This document shows, piece after piece, positions 43,551 through 49,702 of a stretch of 64,000 nt of DNA. The notes beneath the pieces are model-generated. The model was given only the letters and a program-made list of their open reading frames with translations, was not told the origin of the DNA and made no database searches. Position 1 is the stretch's first letter, and each line of letters opens with the position of its first letter. The position numbers and the translations under genes were made by a program. The stretch lies in IMG/VR virus record IMGVR_UViG_3300018080_000167, positions 10,774 through 74,773 of that record; one strand, written 5' to 3'. This stretch comes from a virus.

Positions 43551-44546
43551 ATGGTTAAATCTGCAGTGATAACTGGTGTAAACGGACAAGATGGGGCGTG
43601 GTTGGCTAGGCATCTAGTTGATATTGGCTATCAAGTTGTTGGTGTCGTTAGGCGAGGCGCTACCGACAAGCTGTGGCGACTACGATATCTTGATCTTTTG
43701 AATAATAAGATGTTTAGTTTGGCTAGTGGAGATGTTACAGATTATGCGTCTATGGAAAGCATTTTAAAATGTCGTCCAGATGAAGTATATAATCTCGCGG
43801 CGCAGTCGCATGTCGGGGAAAGTTTCAAGGCACCAATTGCTACGGCTCAGACAAATTATATTGGTGTTGCAAACCTTCTTGAAGTTATTGCTCAAAATAC
43901 TCCAGATACCAAGTTCTATCAAGCATCTACTTCTGAGCAGATGGGTAGGGGGCAATGGAAAGAAGATGTCTTAATGAACGAAAACACATCATTTCATCCA
44001 AGAAGCCCATATGGCGTGGCGAAAGTTGCAGCCCATTATCTTACTCAAAATTATAGGGAGGCTTACAACATCTTTGGTTGTTGTGGAATTCTTTTCAATC
44101 ACGGTAGCGAATTGCGTCAGGACACATTTGTAACAGCTAAAATTTGTAAGGGTGCTGCGTTGATAGCGATAGGTGAAGCAGATAAGCTTGAGCTTGGCAA
44201 TTTGGACGCAAAGAGGGATTGGGGGTATGCGCCAGACTATGTTCGCGCTATGAACCTTATTCTTCAGCAGGAAAAGGCGGAAGACTTTGTTATTGCTACC
44301 GGACAAACTCGTAGCGTAAGAGAGTTTTGCGATGTAGCATTTGGTATGTTTGATTTGGATTATAAAAAATATGTTGTTCAGTCAGATGAATTTTATAGAC
44401 CTGCAGATGTTGGCTGCCTCATAGGTGATAGTAGTAAAGCTAAAGAAAAACTTGAATGGGAGCCAGAAACCTCCTTTGAAGAGATGGTTGCTAATATGTG
44501 CGAATTTTGGATGGATATGATTCAAAAGGGTGATAAATATGTATGA
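43551..44546 (+). CDS. gmd: GDP-mannose 4,6-dehydratase
   Basis: ITGVNGQDG, YNLAAQSHV, YQASTSE, PRSPYGVAK, GILFNH, LGNLDAKRDWG. Confidence 0.95.
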   Translation: MVKSAVITGVNGQDGAWLARHLVDIGYQVVGVVRRGATDKLWRLRYLDLLNNKMFSLASGDVTDYASMESILKCRPDEVYNLAAQSHVGESFKAPIATAQTNYIGVANLLEVIAQNTPDTKFYQASTSEQMGRGQWKEDVLMNENTSFHPRSPYGVAKVAAHYLTQNYREAYNIFGCCGILFNHGSELRQDTFVTAKICKGAALIAIGEADKLELGNLDAKRDWGYAPDYVRAMNLILQQEKAEDFVIATGQTRSVREFCDVAFGMFDLDYKKYVVQSDEFYRPADVGCLIGDSSKAKEKLEWEPETSFEEMVANMCEFWMDMIQKGDKYV

Positions 44547-45077: not shown

Positions 45078-45357
45078 AGAGGGCATTTTAAAATTTGATA
45101 TCTCAGATATAGATGGAGAGTTGGCGTTTAAAAGGGCTGTGAAAGTAGATGACTATTGTGCGGCACTTTTAGACGTTGCAAATGAAGTTTTCAGACCACA
45201 CAGAAAACACGGTTATTCCAGTAAAAAACTTCAAGATATTATTAATATCTCATATGATGATGATAAGAATCTTGTTTTGGATATGATTTCTCTCTTGGAA
45301 GACATGTTTTATGAAATAATGGAAGAAAATGATATAAATTTAGACAAGCTTTATTGA
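45061..45357 (+). CDS. Conserved phage hypothetical protein
   Basis: LKFD..D....FKRAVK......L.D....FR...KHG. Confidence 0.65.
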   Translation: MRETAKEGILKFDISDIDGELAFKRAVKVDDYCAALLDVANEVFRPHRKHGYSSKKLQDIINISYDDDKNLVLDMISLLEDMFYEIMEENDINLDKLY

Positions 45358-45368
45358 TAGGAGTGTTG

Positions 45369-46175
45369 ATGGACATAGTGGCGAATGGAATTATTGGAAA
45401 ATGAAAACGTATTATTATTGATGATGAGGACTATGAAATAGTAAAAAATTTTAGATGGACATTAAAAAAAAGTTCGAATACGTTTTATGCTAAGTCATTT
45501 AATGGTGAGCACACAATACTTATGCATCGTCTTATATTGGGATTAAAATTTGGAGATAAGAGAGAAGTTGATCATATCAATAGAGATGGTATTGACAATA
45601 GGAAATGTAATTTAAGAATAGTTAATAGAAATCAACAAAATCAAAATAGACGTGCTGTTAGAAATAGATGTAGCAAATATAGAGGTGTTTGTTTTGCAAA
45701 ATGTGACTGTTGTAAATCTTTTAGGGCTGCGTTTAAAAAAGATGGTAAAACATTATGTGAAGTTATTTTTGCGACAGAAAAAATGGCTGCGTTATATTAT
45801 GATTTAATTGCATATAAACATAATTCAAAATATAATTATTTAAACTTTAAAGATATAAAATATTATGAAATTAAAAACATTATAAGCGATGAGATTAAAA
45901 AACAGGCGGAAAGAAGCGAGATCATAAGAAAAAACAAAGGTAAGGGTAATGAAAATAATATTGGGAAAAAGCTTGTAAGTTATACTAAATACACAGGTGT
46001 TGGATATCGTAAAGAAAGAAAAAAGCCCTGGTATGCATTTTGTTACATAGATGGCAAAAGGAAGAAACACATAGGGTCATATGCAACAGAGGCAGAGGCA
46101 GCTATGGCGTTTGATGAATATGTAATAAATAATAAAGTAGAGAAATATTTGCAACATTTGAATTGTGGGAGGTAA
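45369..46175 (+). CDS. HNH-AP2 homing endonuclease with in-frame TGA at codon 12 (intact ORF from 45522)
   Basis: IIDDEDY..W, MHRLIL, VDHINRDGIDNRKCNLR, two AP2-like repeats (SKYRGV, KYTGV..HIGSY.TE.EAA.AFD). Confidence 0.8.
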
Positions 46176-46176
46176 T

Positions 46177-48816
46177 GTGAAATTTACAGAAAACGGAATG
46201 AGGCTACTGAGGCGAAGGTATTTGAGAAAAGACAATAATGGAAATGTTGTTGAAACACCAGAAGAGCTTTTGGACAGGGTGAGCAAATGTCTTTCGCATT
46301 CAGAAATTTTTTATGGCGGTAAAACTAAAAGAAAAAAATGGTATAATATTATTAAAAATTCTTTGAACAATATGGAAATAATGCCATCAACCCCCATTCT
46401 TTTTAATGCTAGAGATCCTGAAATAGAAAAACCAGGGGTACTGTATGCTTGTTTTTTTGTTCCAATGTCTGATTCTATTCAGGGTATTTATTCGTGCCTA
46501 CACCTTTGTTCTTCTATTTTTAGCGCGGGTGGCGGCATAGGGACAGATGTGTCGTGTTTGCGTGAAAATGGGGCTGATATAGGTAATGGTAGGGGCGTTA
46601 GTACAGGACCAATATCATTTTTGAAAGTATTTGATGCTTCGTCTGATGCGATTTTACATGGGGGGGTCAGAAGGGCTGCCGCACTTGCATCGATGGATGT
46701 TTCACATCCAGACATAGAGCATTTTTTGCGTGTTAAAGGGGAAAACTTACAAGAAATTAATAGACTTTTGGCAATTGTTAATTCTTCTAAAGATGGCATA
46801 TTGAAAAAATATATTCAAGCTGAAATTTCTAAGTTGCAGCAACTTAGTCATTTTAATCTTTCTGTTAAGATCACAGATAAGTTTATGGATGCTGTAAGAA
46901 ATAATAAAGATTGGGAATTAATTTCTCCACATACGGGAAGCGTTGTTAAAACAATTTCTGCCGCGAAATTATTTAACGACATTTGTAGGTGTGCACATAA
47001 TTCTGCAGAACCTGGGGTTATTTTTATAGATGAAATTAATAGGCATAACCCAATGCCAAACATTGGACCAATTAATGGAACCAATGCTTGTTCTGAGGTT
47101 CCGCTTCATGATTATAATGCATGTAATTTGATATCTGTTAATTTAAATAAGTGCTTAGCTAACGAGGAGTTTTCTTTTGATGAACTGAAAAGAATCAGTA
47201 GGATAGCGCTTCGTTGCGGAGAAAATGTAATAGATGTTTCTTCATATCTTGATGAAAAGATAGAGAATATTGTTAAAAATAGTCGTGGGATTGGCGTTGG
47301 CGTTACTGGTTTTGCAGACGTTCTTGTAAGGCTTGGAATACCTTACGATAGCAAAAGAGCTAGAGATTTTGTTCGTAAAATAACAAAGGTATTAACAGAC
47401 TCATGTCGTGAAGAGTCAAAAGAGCTTGCAAAAGAAAGAGGTGTTTTTAATAATTATAAAGGATCTCTAATGGAAAAAAAGGGATTTGTTGTTAGAAATG
47501 CATTTGTCAGCGCTCTGCAGCCTACAGGATCTACTGCGATACTCGCTGGGGCATCTCAGTCAATAGAGCCATACTTTTCATTGTTTTACACTAGAAATAC
47601 TCACGAAGGCGATGTGTATGTTGAGCTTAATGAAATTTTTATTGATAAACTTAAAAAAATGAATATTGATACAGAATGTGTTGTTAATGAGCTAAAGAAA
47701 GGTAAGCAGCTTTGTGATATTGATATTATCCCAGATGAAATAAAAAGAGTTTTTGTTACATCTCATTTAATTTCAGCAGAGGGACATGTCAGAATGCAAG
47801 CTGCGGCTCAAGAAAATATAGATTTAAGCATTTCTAAAACTGTTAATTTACCATCTAATGCAACAGTAAACGATGTAAAAAATGTTTATCTGTTAGCAGA
47901 AAAACTCGGTTGTAAGGGGTGTACTGTATATAGGGATGGCTCAAGAGAGGGTGTTTTGCATTCTGTAGTCGAGAAAGAAGAGAGCGATGGTAATGAAGAG
48001 TTGCGAGACTTTTTGTATAATAAATTTGTCAAAGAGGGGCTTACGGCTAAAGAGATAGCCGACATTCTTGATGTTTCTGAATCACAAGTTTTTTCAAAGC
48101 TTAAAAGGTTTTGTATTAAGAAAAGTGATAAAAACACTACAATTTCTGCCAAAAAAATAAAACTTACTCAATCACTAAAGGAAATTATAATAGCGAATCT
48201 TCTTGTTGGTAATTCTAAAATAAACACTGTTGAGAGTCAGTCGTCTTATAGACAAGTAAGTGATCACTGTGTTTATACTAAGAATATTCGCAAAAAATTC
48301 TTGGACAACGGCATAAACTGTTCTGAGATTATGACAATTGTGACAGATAAAATATATTATTATTTTGACACTGTATTCAATAGTAATATTTATAATTTAC
48401 CAGCAGATAATGATGTGGTAGATAAGTTAAGCAGCGACGAGATTGATACGTTATTGACAAGAACTTTTGTTAGACACCTTTTTCTTGTTGGCGGAGTTCG
48501 TACAGGAAGAGGTGGAATTAAGTTTTGTTCTAAACACGGAAACTATAATAACTTAAAGAAAATTATGCAGCTTGTTGAGAAGGAGCTCGGTGTAGAATTC
48601 AGCTATAAGCAAAAGGAAAACAACAATGGAATTGTTTATATTCCTAAGAGGTGTGCGGAAGACTTTTATAATTTTATAGAGTCTGGAGAGCAAATCAATA
48701 AGATTAATTCAATACAAAGCAAGGCTACTTGTCCAGAATGTGGTGGTATGCTTAATTTTTGTGAAGGCTGTAAGACATGCGCCTCCTGCGGCTGGTCTGC
48801 TTGTAGTATTGGCTGA
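46177..48816 (+). CDS. nrdJ: Class II (adenosylcobalamin) ribonucleotide reductase with inserted HTH + degenerate LAGLIDADG domain
   Basis: RRYL, PSTPILFNA, YACF, GGGIG, GGVRRAA, EPG..FID, TNACSE, QPTGS, SISKTVN, KGCTVYRDGSR, C-terminal CPECG..CASCGWSAC; GGAGG RBS before GTG at 46177. Confidence 0.93.
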   Translation: MKFTENGMRLLRRRYLRKDNNGNVVETPEELLDRVSKCLSHSEIFYGGKTKRKKWYNIIKNSLNNMEIMPSTPILFNARDPEIEKPGVLYACFFVPMSDSIQGIYSCLHLCSSIFSAGGGIGTDVSCLRENGADIGNGRGVSTGPISFLKVFDASSDAILHGGVRRAAALASMDVSHPDIEHFLRVKGENLQEINRLLAIVNSSKDGILKKYIQAEISKLQQLSHFNLSVKITDKFMDAVRNNKDWELISPHTGSVVKTISAAKLFNDICRCAHNSAEPGVIFIDEINRHNPMPNIGPINGTNACSEVPLHDYNACNLISVNLNKCLANEEFSFDELKRISRIALRCGENVIDVSSYLDEKIENIVKNSRGIGVGVTGFADVLVRLGIPYDSKRARDFVRKITKVLTDSCREESKELAKERGVFNNYKGSLMEKKGFVVRNAFVSALQPTGSTAILAGASQSIEPYFSLFYTRNTHEGDVYVELNEIFIDKLKKMNIDTECVVNELKKGKQLCDIDIIPDEIKRVFVTSHLISAEGHVRMQAAAQENIDLSISKTVNLPSNATVNDVKNVYLLAEKLGCKGCTVYRDGSREGVLHSVVEKEESDGNEELRDFLYNKFVKEGLTAKEIADILDVSESQVFSKLKRFCIKKSDKNTTISAKKIKLTQSLKEIIIANLLVGNSKINTVESQSSYRQVSDHCVYTKNIRKKFLDNGINCSEIMTIVTDKIYYYFDTVFNSNIYNLPADNDVVDKLSSDEIDTLLTRTFVRHLFLVGGVRTGRGGIKFCSKHGNYNNLKKIMQLVEKELGVEFSYKQKENNNGIVYIPKRCAEDFYNFIESGEQINKINSIQSKATCPECGGMLNFCEGCKTCASCGWSACSIG

Positions 48817-48825
48817 TAATGCAAA

Positions 48826-48840
48826 TAAACGTATAATACA
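48826..48840 (+). promoter_or_regulatory. Class C (late) phage promoter
   Basis: AAACGTATAATA; recurs before structural genes. Confidence 0.65.
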
Positions 48841-48893
48841 ATAGGTGCTATGTTATTTATCATAATATAAGCACTATAAAGAGAGGAGAAAAT

Positions 48894-49067
48894 ATGTCTG
48901 ATTTAGAACATTATGAAAAATTAAACGCAAAAGGTTTAACGCCAAAGGTGCGTGCAATCAATCCTAAGGCGGTTTCTGCTAGCGGACTTGGTGAATTTAG
49001 GCGCGATATTTCTGATGAAGAAATAAATCGTATTATTGAGGAAAATAGAATTGGACGCCTTGATTAA
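48894..49067 (+). CDS. Small hypothetical protein (57 aa)
   Basis: GAGGAG RBS; TAATG coupling to the sigma gene. Confidence 0.55.
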   Translation: MSDLEHYEKLNAKGLTPKVRAINPKAVSASGLGEFRRDISDEEINRIIEENRIGRLD

Positions 49068-49702
49068 TGCAAAAATACAATAAAGCAAAAATAGAAAAAT
49101 TGGCAGATAGTGGCGAGTTAAAATATGAAGATGTAAGTGACATAGTAGAGTATTTAATTAATGCCAAGTCAAATAAAATTTATCAGACTATAGGGATATA
49201 TGATAGAGATGATATAGCGCAAGAATTACGCATTAAATGTTTGAAAGTATTAAAGCGTTATTCATCTGACAAGGGAGACATTGAGAATTTTCTTGGCGTT
49301 TGTATTGACAATGCTCTTATTGATCTTGTTAGAAAACACACACTCAGGAAAAGCAACGTGTGTTTTTATTGTTTGTGTTATTCTAAAGGGGAATGCAAAT
49401 ATTATGACAACATAAAAGATTGTAAAAAATATAGTGATTTTCTTGCAAAGAAAAAGGAAAAGGAATCAATATCCTTGTTGCGTGGCAATTCGTCATTTGA
49501 ATGGCGTAAGATAATAGATCAAGAAGATTCTTTTTCGCACGACTACGATATAGACGAACAAATTAAGATTGTACGCGATAATTTGAACGAGAGAAGCAAA
49601 AAGCTTTTTGATCTTATTATTGCAGGAAAAAGTATAAAGGAAGAAGAAAAGGTTATCTTATTTCAGGAGGTTAGGTATGTTGTTCGGAGATATGTGTGTT
49701 AA
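49067..49702 (+). CDS. Phage sigma70-family factor (probable late sigma)
   Basis: YDRDDIAQEL.IK....LKRY...KG....FL...IDNALIDLVRK (region 2); Cys insert. Confidence 0.75.
   Translation: MQKYNKAKIEKLADSGELKYEDVSDIVEYLINAKSNKIYQTIGIYDRDDIAQELRIKCLKVLKRYSSDKGDIENFLGVCIDNALIDLVRKHTLRKSNVCFYCLCYSKGECKYYDNIKDCKKYSDFLAKKKEKESISLLRGNSSFEWRKIIDQEDSFSHDYDIDEQIKIVRDNLNERSKKLFDLIIAGKSIKEEEKVILFQEVRYVVRRYVC

What the first reader, a model, noticed from the sequence alone, without database searches (positions are those of the whole stretch)
47992..48681. Class II RNR carries an in-frame HTH plus catalytically eroded LAGLIDADG domain with no intein ends
Seen: about 230 aa lie between the NrdJ core end (VYRDGSREGVL) and the C-terminal Cys-rich tail (CPECG..CASCGWSAC). 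They comprise an HTH (LYNKFVKEGLTAKEIADILDVSESQVFSKLKRF) and a two-motif LAGLIDADG-like fold (LTQSLKEIIIANLLVGNS; FVRHLFLVGG; IVYIPKRCAEDFYNFI). The catalytic acidic residues expected at GDG and DDG are missing, and there is no Cys/Ser start or His-Asn end. Known: WhiA is a domesticated LAGLIDADG DNA-binding protein. Inference: a homing endonuclease domesticated as a permanent DNA-binding module of the reductase, for autoregulation or for tethering dNTP synthesis to phage DNA.
Basis: partly seen in the sequence, partly recalled or inferred. Interest (0 to 1): 0.8.

Follow-up and report, generated by a model that had tools for sequence, protein, structure and literature searches.

The report
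Dead homing endonuclease built into phage RNR
A phage vitamin-B12-dependent ribonucleotide reductase carries, as a permanent and strongly conserved part of its C-terminal arm, a helix-turn-helix plus an I-SceI-like homing-endonuclease domain that has lost its catalytic residues; this looks like a selfish DNA-cutting gene recruited into an enzyme rather than spliced out of it.

Summary
The gene at window 46165-48816 (+) encodes an 883-aa class II RNR (NrdJ). Residues 610-841 hold an HTH and a two-lobed LAGLIDADG domain. They lie between the barrel end (VYRDGSREGVL, aa 588-598) and the six-Cys zinc-finger tail (aa 856-881).

- **Homology:** the module matches free-standing HTH+LAGLIDADG_2 homing endonucleases over its whole length (hhalign 99.4%, E 3e-21).
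- **Fold:** the model (pLDDT 85.7) matches I-SceI best (Z 15.7).
- **Catalytic residues:** both Asp positions are replaced (LLGDG to LLVGNS; [YI]GDG to LVGG).
- **Not spliced:** there is no Hint domain and no group I/II intron.
- **Conservation:** at least 15 viral or metagenomic NrdJ share the module. It is as conserved as the catalytic barrel (57% vs 58% mean pairwise identity).
- **Fixed in one clade:** the bearers form one clade, and no near relative lacks the module.
- **Position:** it sits exactly where ordinary NrdJ carry the IscU-like/TSCPD domain, which this clade lacks.

So the domestication reading is supported. The function was not tested. I favour WhiA-like DNA binding driven by the HTH (about 45%) over a structural or oligomerisation replacement for the TSCPD domain (about 35%). 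I class it as a new variant of a known kind. The scan had noted this same stretch once before, in an overlapping window of the same genome.

The parts
46165..48816 (+). nrdJ gene: 883-aa class II (B12-dependent) ribonucleotide reductase, including the stop codon
   Evidence: ORF. NCBIfam TIGR02504 NrdJ_Z scores 553 bits against a cutoff of 400. Pfam Ribonuc_red_lgN covers aa 6-85 and Ribonuc_red_lgC covers aa 95-589.
46447..47958 (+). Catalytic barrel (aa 95-598), ending in VYRDGSREGVL
   Evidence: Pfam PF02867, E 1.7e-124. The catalytic-type residues C96, N307, C309, E311 and C320 are invariant in alignment A1.
47959..48000 (+). Flexible acidic linker (aa 599-612)
   Evidence: pLDDT below 50 at model residues 1-7. 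No invariant columns and 42% mean pairwise identity.
48001..48129 (+). Helix-turn-helix module (aa 613-655) of the type found as DNA-binding repeats in free-standing phage homing endonucleases
   Evidence: Pfam HTH_23 and Sigma70_r4 hits, below threshold. phmmer hits to multi-HTH HNH and LAGLIDADG endonucleases. Helices at model residues 4-50, pLDDT about 90. It is the best-conserved segment of the protein: 67% mean pairwise identity, 13 of 43 columns invariant.
48160..48399 (+). LAGLIDADG lobe 1 (aa 666-745)
   Evidence: [quoted passage not shown] I-SceI match with Z 15.7 over model residues 56-243. 64% mean pairwise identity.
48196..48216 (+). Remnant of LAGLIDADG motif 1, NLLVGNS. The catalytic Asp of LLGDG is replaced by Asn here, His in most relatives, and Pro or Thr in others.
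   Evidence: Alignment blocks. GDG of P0038 aligns to the I-SceI and I-WcaI motif.
48457..48687 (+). LAGLIDADG lobe 2 (aa 765-841)
   Evidence: Model topology, VIA and Foldseek matches, hhalign.
48481..48498 (+). Remnant of LAGLIDADG motif 2, FLVGGV. The catalytic Asp of [YI]GDG is replaced by Gly. Only the distant P0018/P0019 branch keeps an acid there (LSEGT).
   Evidence: alignment block.
48688..48729 (+). Short variable linker (aa 842-855)
   Evidence: pLDDT below 50 at model residues 247-253. 24% mean pairwise identity and no invariant columns.
48730..48813 (+). Cysteine-rich zinc-finger tail (CRD) with six invariant Cys: C856, C859, C869, C872, C875, C880
   Evidence: Invariant columns in A1. 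The same pattern occurs in ordinary NrdJ L087 and L091. CRD function is described in PMC5704485.

Best explanation
A free-standing phage homing-endonuclease gene of the HTH + monomeric LAGLIDADG_2 (I-SceI-like) type became fused in frame into the variable C-terminal arm of a phage NrdJ. It sits between the catalytic barrel and the zinc-finger tail that re-reduces the active site, in the place where ordinary NrdJ carry the IscU-like/TSCPD domain. It then lost both metal-binding acids and has been inherited vertically as a fixed, translated, unspliced domain of the enzyme.

Shown here: the homology, the fold, the loss of the acids, the absence of a splicing apparatus, the position, and the clade-wide conservation.

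Inferred: the function. Most likely the module still binds nucleic acid, chiefly through its well-conserved HTH, with the dead LAGLIDADG saddle as an auxiliary or partner-binding surface, as in WhiA. That would anchor the reductase, or its mobile reducing arm, to specific phage DNA, giving local dNTP supply or feedback on expression. I put identity and origin at about 0.9 and the DNA-binding function at about 0.45. The confidence of 0.55 is for the statement as a whole.
For: - **Homology over the whole module:** phmmer hits P0028, P0029, P0038 and P0039 align to insert residues 4-229 of 230. These proteins have LAGLIDADG_2 at E 1e-19 to 1e-29 and intact GDG motifs. hhalign gives 99.4%, E 2.9e-21.
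- **Fold:** pLDDT 85.7; I-SceI Z 15.7, I-DmoI Z 13.6, WhiA Z 12.7.
- **Acids lost:**, with the link to I-SceI by sequence.
- **Not spliced:** no Hint or intein family; no group I/II intron in 45300-49200 at E up to 10; the open frame is kept in all relatives.
- **Selection:** insert 57% vs barrel 58% mean pairwise identity; HTH 67%; lobe 1 64%; linkers 24-42%.
- **Fixed, single origin:** the 12 bearers form one clade (support 1.0) sister to TSCPD-bearing NrdJ. Every NrdJ with at least 46% barrel identity has the module and lacks PF12637; all more distant ones carry PF12637 or other tails.
- **Vertical inheritance:** synteny is conserved, with GDP-mannose dehydratase upstream and a sigma-like gene downstream.
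- **Slot of TSCPD:**; PMC9669993 section 2.4.
- **For DNA binding:** the HTH keeps the consensus of endonuclease DNA-binding repeats ([TQK][IV]xx[RWK]L[KR][KRQ][FY]x[IV]) and is basic in most members. Invariant polar residues lie on the saddle strands (Q692, S694, R696, T727, D728, D735, T736). WhiA is a precedent (PMC3384342, PMC3240954).
Against: - No binding data and no candidate target site were found.
- The LAGLIDADG part has a net charge of -9 to +7 across the clade (median near -1). It is not the uniformly basic surface of active endonucleases, although the four free-standing relatives are only -1 to +5.
- The module sits where a domain suspected of mediating oligomerisation normally sits (PMC9669993), so a purely protein-level role is a serious alternative.
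- The full-length AlphaFold model was too poor (pLDDT 66.5, pTM 0.58) to show whether the module docks on the barrel.
- The tree is midpoint-rooted and built from a limited sample of 156 NrdJ.
Confidence: 0.55

Rival explanations
1. Structural or oligomerisation substitute. The dead endonuclease fold no longer binds nucleic acid. It serves as a rigid spacer or protein-protein interface (subunit cross-talk, higher oligomers, or docking of an unknown reductant) that positions the zinc-finger tail, taking over whatever the IscU-like/TSCPD domain does.
For: - It occupies the same slot as TSCPD, which this clade lacks.
- The TSCPD/IscU-like domain and the CRD are linked to oligomerisation and inter-subunit electron transfer (PMC9669993; PMC5704485).
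- The LAGLIDADG part is neutral to acidic in most members.
- For WhiA, the literature suggests the LAGLIDADG domain may have given up DNA binding in favour of protein contacts (PMC3384342).
Against: - A mere spacer would not need an HTH kept at 67% identity with its recognition-helix consensus intact.
- Some NrdJ join the tail directly to the barrel, about 20 aa apart, so no spacer is required for catalysis.
Confidence: 0.35
2. RNA-directed role. The module acts like a LAGLIDADG maturase or a translational autoregulator that binds the nrdJ mRNA or another phage RNA.
For: LAGLIDADG proteins that lost nuclease activity can become RNA-binding maturases (PMC3384342). The bI3 maturase appears among the structural matches (Z 9.3).
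Against: No intron was detected in or near the gene. The closest structural matches are DNA enzymes, not the maturase. The HTH is of the DNA-binding repeat type found in endonucleases.
Confidence: 0.07
3. It is still a mobile or removable element: an unrecognised intein, an intron-encoded ORF read through by chance, or an active in-frame endonuclease that homes into insert-less nrdJ alleles.
For: RNR genes are hot spots for inteins, introns and free-standing endonucleases (PMC3045599). Relatives of this very protein carry true inteins elsewhere in the barrel. An HNH endonuclease gene lies directly upstream.
Against: - No Hint fold or family is present, and no ribozyme.
- Both catalytic acids are missing across the main clade.
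- There is no presence/absence polymorphism: all near relatives carry it.
- The linkers are only 14 to 16 aa, and the frame is kept open at 44-72% protein identity.
Confidence: 0.03
4. Assembly or gene-calling artefact: a chimeric contig or a frameshift fusing two genes.
For: The window is an uncultivated virus record estimated to be 41% complete.
Against: The same architecture appears in at least 15 independent assemblies from several sources (JGI, ENA, NCBI, Logan) and in 3 IMG/VR contigs of 80-151 kb.
Confidence: 0.01

Closest known systems
WhiA/DUF199 (bacterial transcription factor; domesticated LAGLIDADG + HTH)
   Same: A monomeric two-lobed LAGLIDADG fold without the catalytic acids, joined to a sigma-region-4-like HTH. 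WhiA is among the structural matches (3hyi, Z 12.7). In WhiA, DNA binding is driven mainly by the HTH (PMC3240954).
   Different: - No sequence-family relationship was detected.
- The domain order is reversed: the HTH is N-terminal here.
- The nearest relatives are free-standing phage I-SceI-like endonucleases, not WhiA.
- The module is embedded inside a metabolic enzyme rather than being a stand-alone regulator.
- It is an independent and much more recent domestication.
Free-standing HTH + LAGLIDADG_2 homing endonucleases of phages (e.g. P0028, P0038; I-SceI/I-WcaI family)
   Same: Homologous over the whole module (hhalign 99.4%), with the same HTH-linker-two-lobe layout and the same fold.
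   Different: - Those proteins keep LLGDG and [YI]GDG; here both acids are replaced.
- Those are separate genes; this one is an internal domain flanked by the RNR barrel and zinc finger.
- There is no sign of mobility.
IscU-like/TSCPD domain plus zinc-finger CRD of ordinary long-tailed NrdJ (Burnim 2022, PMC9669993; Loderer 2017, PMC5704485)
   Same: The same position between the barrel and the six-Cys zinc finger, and the same zinc-finger tail.
   Different: The fold and ancestry are unrelated. The TSCPD HMM and Pfam PF12637 do not hit the module. PMC9669993 does not mention an endonuclease, LAGLIDADG or HTH domain in class II C-termini.
Aeromonas phage Aeh1 split NrdA (mobE insertion; Crona 2010, PMC3045599)
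   Same: A homing-endonuclease insertion into a phage RNR gene whose by-products became functional parts of the enzyme.
   Different: In Aeh1 the gene is split, the endonuclease stays a separate active gene, and only short tails were co-opted. Here the whole endonuclease coding region is translated in frame as a domain and is catalytically dead.
Inteins with LAGLIDADG endonuclease domains in RNR genes
   Same: An in-frame LAGLIDADG domain inside an RNR. True examples occur in this protein's own relatives (P0012, P0013, P0015, P0018).
   Different: No Hint splicing domain. It belongs to LAGLIDADG_2 rather than the intein-type LAGLIDADG_3. It lies in a linker rather than a conserved catalytic motif, and it is not removable.

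Membership tests
LAGLIDADG homing endonucleases (PF03161 LAGLIDADG_2, I-SceI-like) | [quoted passage not shown] | tested here: met
   Model pLDDT 85.7. I-SceI: Foldseek E 4e-8 and VIA Z 15.7, rmsd 3.1, 182 residues aligned.
LAGLIDADG homing endonucleases (PF03161 LAGLIDADG_2, I-SceI-like) | Sequence homology to family members | tested here: met
   hhalign 99.4%, E 2.9e-21, against free-standing members; phmmer. The window protein alone scores 19-23 bits, below Pfam's 25-bit cutoff. Only 3 of 11 clade members hit at E up to 0.01. P0018 and P0019 pass the cutoff.
LAGLIDADG homing endonucleases (PF03161 LAGLIDADG_2, I-SceI-like) | Acidic metal-binding residue at the end of each LAGLIDADG helix | tested here: not met
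   Motif 1 is LLVGNS (Asn, His, Pro or Thr in relatives). Motif 2 is LVGG (Gly). Mapped to I-SceI through P0038.
LAGLIDADG homing endonucleases (PF03161 LAGLIDADG_2, I-SceI-like) | Mobility: patchy presence or absence among close host alleles | tested here: not met
   All NrdJ with at least 46% barrel identity carry it, and none of those beyond do. The bearers are monophyletic.
LAGLIDADG homing endonucleases (PF03161 LAGLIDADG_2, I-SceI-like) | Site-specific DNA cleavage | not testable with these tools
   Needs a biochemical assay.
Intein | Hint splicing domain (blocks A, B, F, G) | tested here: not met
   No Hint or Intein_splicing hit at E up to 1, whereas relatives' true inteins are detected. 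The model accounts for all 285 residues without a Hint fold.
Intein | Cys/Ser/Thr at the N-terminal junction and His-Asn followed by Cys/Ser/Thr at the C-terminal junction | tested here: not met
   There is no His-Asn before C856. The junction linkers are variable and have no conserved nucleophile.
Group I/II intron with an encoded ORF | Ribozyme core flanking or embedding the ORF | tested here: not met
   Rfam scan of 45300-49200 at E up to 10 returns only a chance snoRNA hit. The protein-level constraint runs through both junctions.
Class II RNR (NrdJ, dimeric type with CRD) | RNR barrel plus N-terminal helical domain, with the catalytic Cys/Asn/Glu set | tested here: met
   TIGR02504 scores 553 bits against a cutoff of 400. 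PF02867 and PF00317 hit. C96, N307, C309, E311 and C320 are invariant.
Class II RNR (NrdJ, dimeric type with CRD) | C-terminal six-cysteine zinc-finger CRD | tested here: met
   C856, C859, C869, C872, C875 and C880 are invariant. The pattern is the same in L087 and L091. See PMC5704485.
Class II RNR (NrdJ, dimeric type with CRD) | IscU-like/TSCPD domain in long C-termini (not universal in the family) | tested here: not met
   PF12637 is absent. A custom TSCPD HMM hits 112 of 156 other NrdJ but none of the 12 clade members.
WhiA/DUF199 | N-terminal LAGLIDADG domain followed by a C-terminal HTH, with WhiA family sequence signatures | tested here: not met
   The order is reversed here, and no WhiA family hit appears in Pfam or NCBIfam. 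The resemblance is structural only (Z 12.7). It works like WhiA at most and is not a member.

The most novel reading that the evidence does not exclude
The reductase is a sequence-specific DNA-bound enzyme. The HTH plus dead LAGLIDADG module parks NrdJ on defined sites of the phage genome (origin, replication factories or its own promoter). This would couple dNTP synthesis physically to replication, or let the enzyme double as a WhiA-like transcription factor. It would be the first RNR with a built-in DNA-targeting domain, and a case of a phage turning a selfish endonuclease into part of a metabolic enzyme.
Probability: 0.35. Interest if true: 0.8.

Novelty: new variant of a known kind. Interest (0 to 1): 0.6.

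Why it matters
Homing endonucleases that land in essential genes are normally tolerated because they are spliced out (introns, inteins) or because they split the gene. Here the whole endonuclease is kept in frame as a domain of the enzyme. It is stripped of its nuclease residues and conserved as tightly as the active-site barrel.

That adds a third outcome: absorption. It is also a second, independent domestication of a LAGLIDADG+HTH unit besides WhiA.

It also shows that the poorly understood IscU-like/TSCPD slot of class II RNRs can be refilled with an unrelated fold. This gives a natural experiment on what that slot does.

If the module binds DNA, it bears on the old question of how dNTP synthesis is coupled to replication in phage-infected cells.

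Standard annotation misses the domain: the precomputed Pfam entries list only the RNR domains, plus HTH_23 in one member.

Tried and rejected
- **No dN/dS:** none was computed. The only DNA pairs available (window, L001-L003) are about 45-55% identical at the protein level, so synonymous sites are saturated. Protein-level conservation by region was used instead.
- **Phage GenBank collection:** no DNA match. The insert gave only weak HTH hits by tblastn. The nearest isolated-phage NrdJ is 33% identical and lacks the module.
- **Pattern scan:** a scan of viral contigs with the single insert sequence found nothing. The alignment-based scan found 3 loci.
- **Metagenome and genome scans:** these picked barrel patterns and returned generic NrdJ. 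They served only as comparators.
- **Full-length AlphaFold model:** too poor to judge domain docking.
- **Charge analysis of the LAGLIDADG part:** inconclusive.
- **HTH profile search:** an HMM of the clade's HTH found no match in 144 other NrdJ C-termini. The HTH seen in L043 is therefore unrelated.
- **Rhodobacter phage match:** the apparent extension into the HTH region is spill-over into the neighbouring gene.
- **Own virus record:** no second copy of the module.
- **Upstream DNA:** a look at the DNA upstream of nrdJ for a shared operator gave only a promoter-like ACGTATAATAC element.
- **Readings rejected:** intein, intron, TSCPD and assembly artefact, for the reasons given under the rival explanations.
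Full report
**What is there.** The window is part of an uncultivated virus record of 74.8 kb, estimated 41% complete. A single ORF at 46165-48816 (+) encodes an 883-aa protein. It is a class II, B12-dependent ribonucleotide reductase:
- NCBIfam TIGR02504 NrdJ_Z scores 553 bits against a cutoff of 400.
- Pfam Ribonuc_red_lgN covers aa 6-85 and the barrel covers aa 95-589.
- The residues expected of an active RNR (C96, N307, C309, E311, C320) are invariant among relatives.

The barrel ends with VYRDGSREGVL (aa 588-598). The protein ends with a six-cysteine tail: CPECG...C..C..CG....C, aa 856-881. Ordinary NrdJ have the same tail. It corresponds to the zinc-finger CRD that shuttles electrons to the active site (PMC5704485). 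The finding's coordinates, 47992-48681, correspond to aa 610-839.

**What the 230 residues are.** Single-sequence Pfam hits are suggestive but below threshold: HTH_23 at E 7e-5 and LAGLIDADG_2 at E 1e-4 to 1e-3. Only 3 of 11 relatives reach E 0.01 for LAGLIDADG_2. This is why the public precomputed annotations list only the RNR domains, plus HTH_23 in one member.

Three stronger tests settle it.
1. An exhaustive phmmer search of 1.84 billion representatives finds other NrdJ with the same insert. It also finds free-standing proteins of 300-400 aa that align to the insert from end to end: P0028, P0029, P0038 and P0039. These are bona fide HTH + LAGLIDADG_2 homing endonucleases (E 1e-19 to 1e-29) with intact LLGDG and [YI]GDG motifs. 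P0038 aligns by sequence to I-WcaI and I-SceI (E 3e-9 and 1e-7).
2. A profile-profile comparison of the NrdJ inserts against these endonucleases gives 99.4% probability, E 2.9e-21, over 219 columns. It covers the HTH and both lobes.
3. An AlphaFold model of aa 599-883 is confident (pLDDT 85.7). [quoted passage not shown] Its best structural matches are I-SceI (Foldseek E 4e-8; VIA Z 15.7, rmsd 3.1, 182 residues) and I-WcaI, then I-DmoI (Z 13.6), intein endonuclease domains and WhiA (Z 12.7).

**Catalytic erosion.** In the alignment with the free-standing enzymes:
- Motif 1, LL-GDG, reads LLVGNS in the window. It reads LVGHS in most relatives, IGSPS in two, and LLGTS in the distant P0018/P0019 branch.
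- Motif 2, [YI]GDG, reads LVGG. Only P0018 and P0019 keep an acid there (LSEG).

These are the positions of the metal-binding Asp residues of I-SceI-type enzymes, as established for the family (PMC3384342). Loss of cleavage activity is therefore a strong inference, not a measurement.

**Not an intein, not an intron, not TSCPD.**
- No Hint or intein family is found in the window protein. The true inteins in its relatives P0012, P0013, P0015 and P0018 are detected readily.
- The model leaves no unassigned residues for a Hint domain.
- Rfam finds no group I or II intron between 45300 and 49200 even at E 10. The reading frame stays open and under protein-level constraint through both junctions in all relatives.
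- Pfam TSCPD (PF12637) hits the equivalent region of ordinary NrdJ (L087, E 1e-23). A TSCPD HMM built here hits 112 of 156 comparator NrdJ. Neither hits any member of this clade.

**Where it sits and how it got there.** Among 156 NrdJ collected from viral, metagenomic and genomic contigs, the stretch between barrel and zinc finger falls into three groups:
- a TSCPD domain plus a low-complexity linker (112 sequences);
- short or absent, with the zinc finger as close as about 20 aa to the barrel (31 sequences);
- the endonuclease module, in this clade only (12 sequences).

TSCPD is the "IscU-like" domain of Burnim et al. They describe class II long C-termini as IscU-like plus zinc finger. Their text mentions no endonuclease, LAGLIDADG or HTH domain (PMC9669993).

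A maximum-likelihood tree of the barrels puts the 12 module-bearing proteins in one clade (support 1.0, long stem). The clade is sister to seven TSCPD-bearing NrdJ (support 0.97, midpoint root).

A search with the barrel alone shows that every NrdJ with at least 46% barrel identity carries the module and lacks PF12637. The next-best hits (45% or less) nearly all carry PF12637. So there is no presence/absence polymorphism of the kind a mobile element leaves.

Gene order around nrdJ is shared with L001 and L003: GDP-mannose 4,6-dehydratase upstream and a sigma-region-2-like gene downstream.

The parsimonious history is this. A free-standing HTH-LAGLIDADG endonuclease gene inserted in frame into the permissive arm of an ancestral phage nrdJ. 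The TSCPD domain was lost, the nuclease died, and the fusion has been inherited vertically since. The P0018/P0019 branch is 36-38% identical in the module. It has the same junction spacing and a motif 2 that still holds Glu, so it looks like an earlier-diverging or slower-decaying state.

**Selection.** Across 11 relatives, mean pairwise identity by region is:

| Region | Mean pairwise identity |
|---|---|
| Barrel | 58% |
| Whole insert | 57% |
| HTH | 67% |
| LAGLIDADG lobe 1 | 64% |
| LAGLIDADG lobe 2 | 52% |
| Zinc finger | 63% |
| Three linkers | 24-42% |

Invariant columns make up 23% of the insert and 26% of the barrel. Decaying junk would not look like this. The module has a function.

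**What it does (inference).** Two readings remain.

*Favoured, about 45%: WhiA-like nucleic-acid binding.*
- The HTH is the best-conserved piece.
- It keeps the consensus of the DNA-binding repeats of phage endonucleases.
- It is basic in most members.
- Several invariant polar residues lie on the predicted saddle strands.
- In WhiA, the one well-studied domesticated LAGLIDADG+HTH protein, DNA binding is driven mainly by the HTH. The saddle has an altered charge and may serve protein contacts (PMC3240954, PMC3384342).

A DNA-bound RNR could supply dNTPs locally or feed back on expression.

*Alternative, about 35%: a structural or oligomerisation replacement for the IscU-like domain.* The module would position the reducing tail or mediate subunit cross-talk.
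- The slot is the same.
- The CRD region is implicated in oligomerisation (PMC5704485, PMC9669993).
- The LAGLIDADG part is neutral to acidic in most members.

I could not discriminate further. The full-length model was poor and no candidate DNA site emerged.

**Comparison with known systems.** The module works most like WhiA but is not a member. The domain order is reversed, there is no family signature, and the ancestry is different and more recent. It descends from LAGLIDADG_2 endonucleases but fails their defining catalytic and mobility features.

The nearest precedent within RNRs is phage Aeh1. There a mobE insertion split nrdA, and short insertion-derived tails became assembly domains (PMC3045599). 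Here the entire endonuclease was absorbed in frame.

The literature searches found no description of this architecture. I rate it a new variant of a known kind (endonuclease domestication), with moderate to high interest.

**Limits.**
- No dN/dS could be computed.
- The tree is midpoint-rooted on a limited sample.
- All functional statements are inference.
- An earlier first-stage note on the same stretch, read in an overlapping window of the same genome, says the same as the finding. It added nothing independent.

Noticed in passing
window 45393-46175 (+): An HNH_3 + AP2-like free-standing homing-endonuclease gene lies directly upstream and overlaps the nrdJ start by 11 nt. Its N-terminal 39 codons (KRIIIDDEDYEIVKNFRW...) are in frame with the ATG at 45522 but lie behind a stop. 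The natural-looking ATG at 45401 is one base out of frame at an A-run (MKTYYY***). This is either a homopolymer sequencing error or a recently broken endonuclease gene. L003 has a DNA methylase at this position instead.
   Followed up: partly
L043:2805-3281 (+): An unrelated metagenomic NrdJ carries a different HTH (HTH_Mga/DeoR-like, sub-threshold) between the barrel and a normal TSCPD domain. The clade's HTH profile does not hit it. The linker after the barrel seems to have acquired DNA-binding-type modules more than once.
   Followed up: partly
P0012, P0013, P0015, P0018 (relatives); L002:5454-9047: Several members of the same NrdJ clade carry genuine inteins (Intein_splicing, LAGLIDADG_3, Hint_2) inside the barrel, in addition to the fixed dead module. 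One protein therefore holds both a spliced and an unspliced LAGLIDADG domain.
   Followed up: partly
P0018 aa 1355-1569; P0019 aa 167-377: A distant branch of module-bearing NrdJ keeps LLGTS and LSEGT, so an acid is retained in motif 2. It also passes Pfam's LAGLIDADG_2 threshold. This is a possible intermediate stage of decay, or a nickase-like remnant.
   Followed up: no
window 48829-48839; L003 5861-5871: The element ACGTATAATAC (an extended -10-like box) lies just downstream of nrdJ in the window and just upstream of nrdJ in L003. There are 5 matches with up to 1 mismatch in the window against about 1 expected. It may be a shared phage promoter element.
   Followed up: partly
window 43551-44546, 49067-49702; L001 and L003 equivalents: The neighbourhood is conserved across related viral contigs of 96-151 kb: a GDP-mannose 4,6-dehydratase gene upstream and a sigma-70 region-2-like gene downstream of nrdJ.
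   Followed up: partly
P0054-P0069: A group of NrdJ-like proteins of 1417-1498 aa (barrel + TSCPD, 32-35% identity) scores very high against the barrel query. Their length suggests duplicated or tandem RNR modules, or very large insertions.
   Followed up: no
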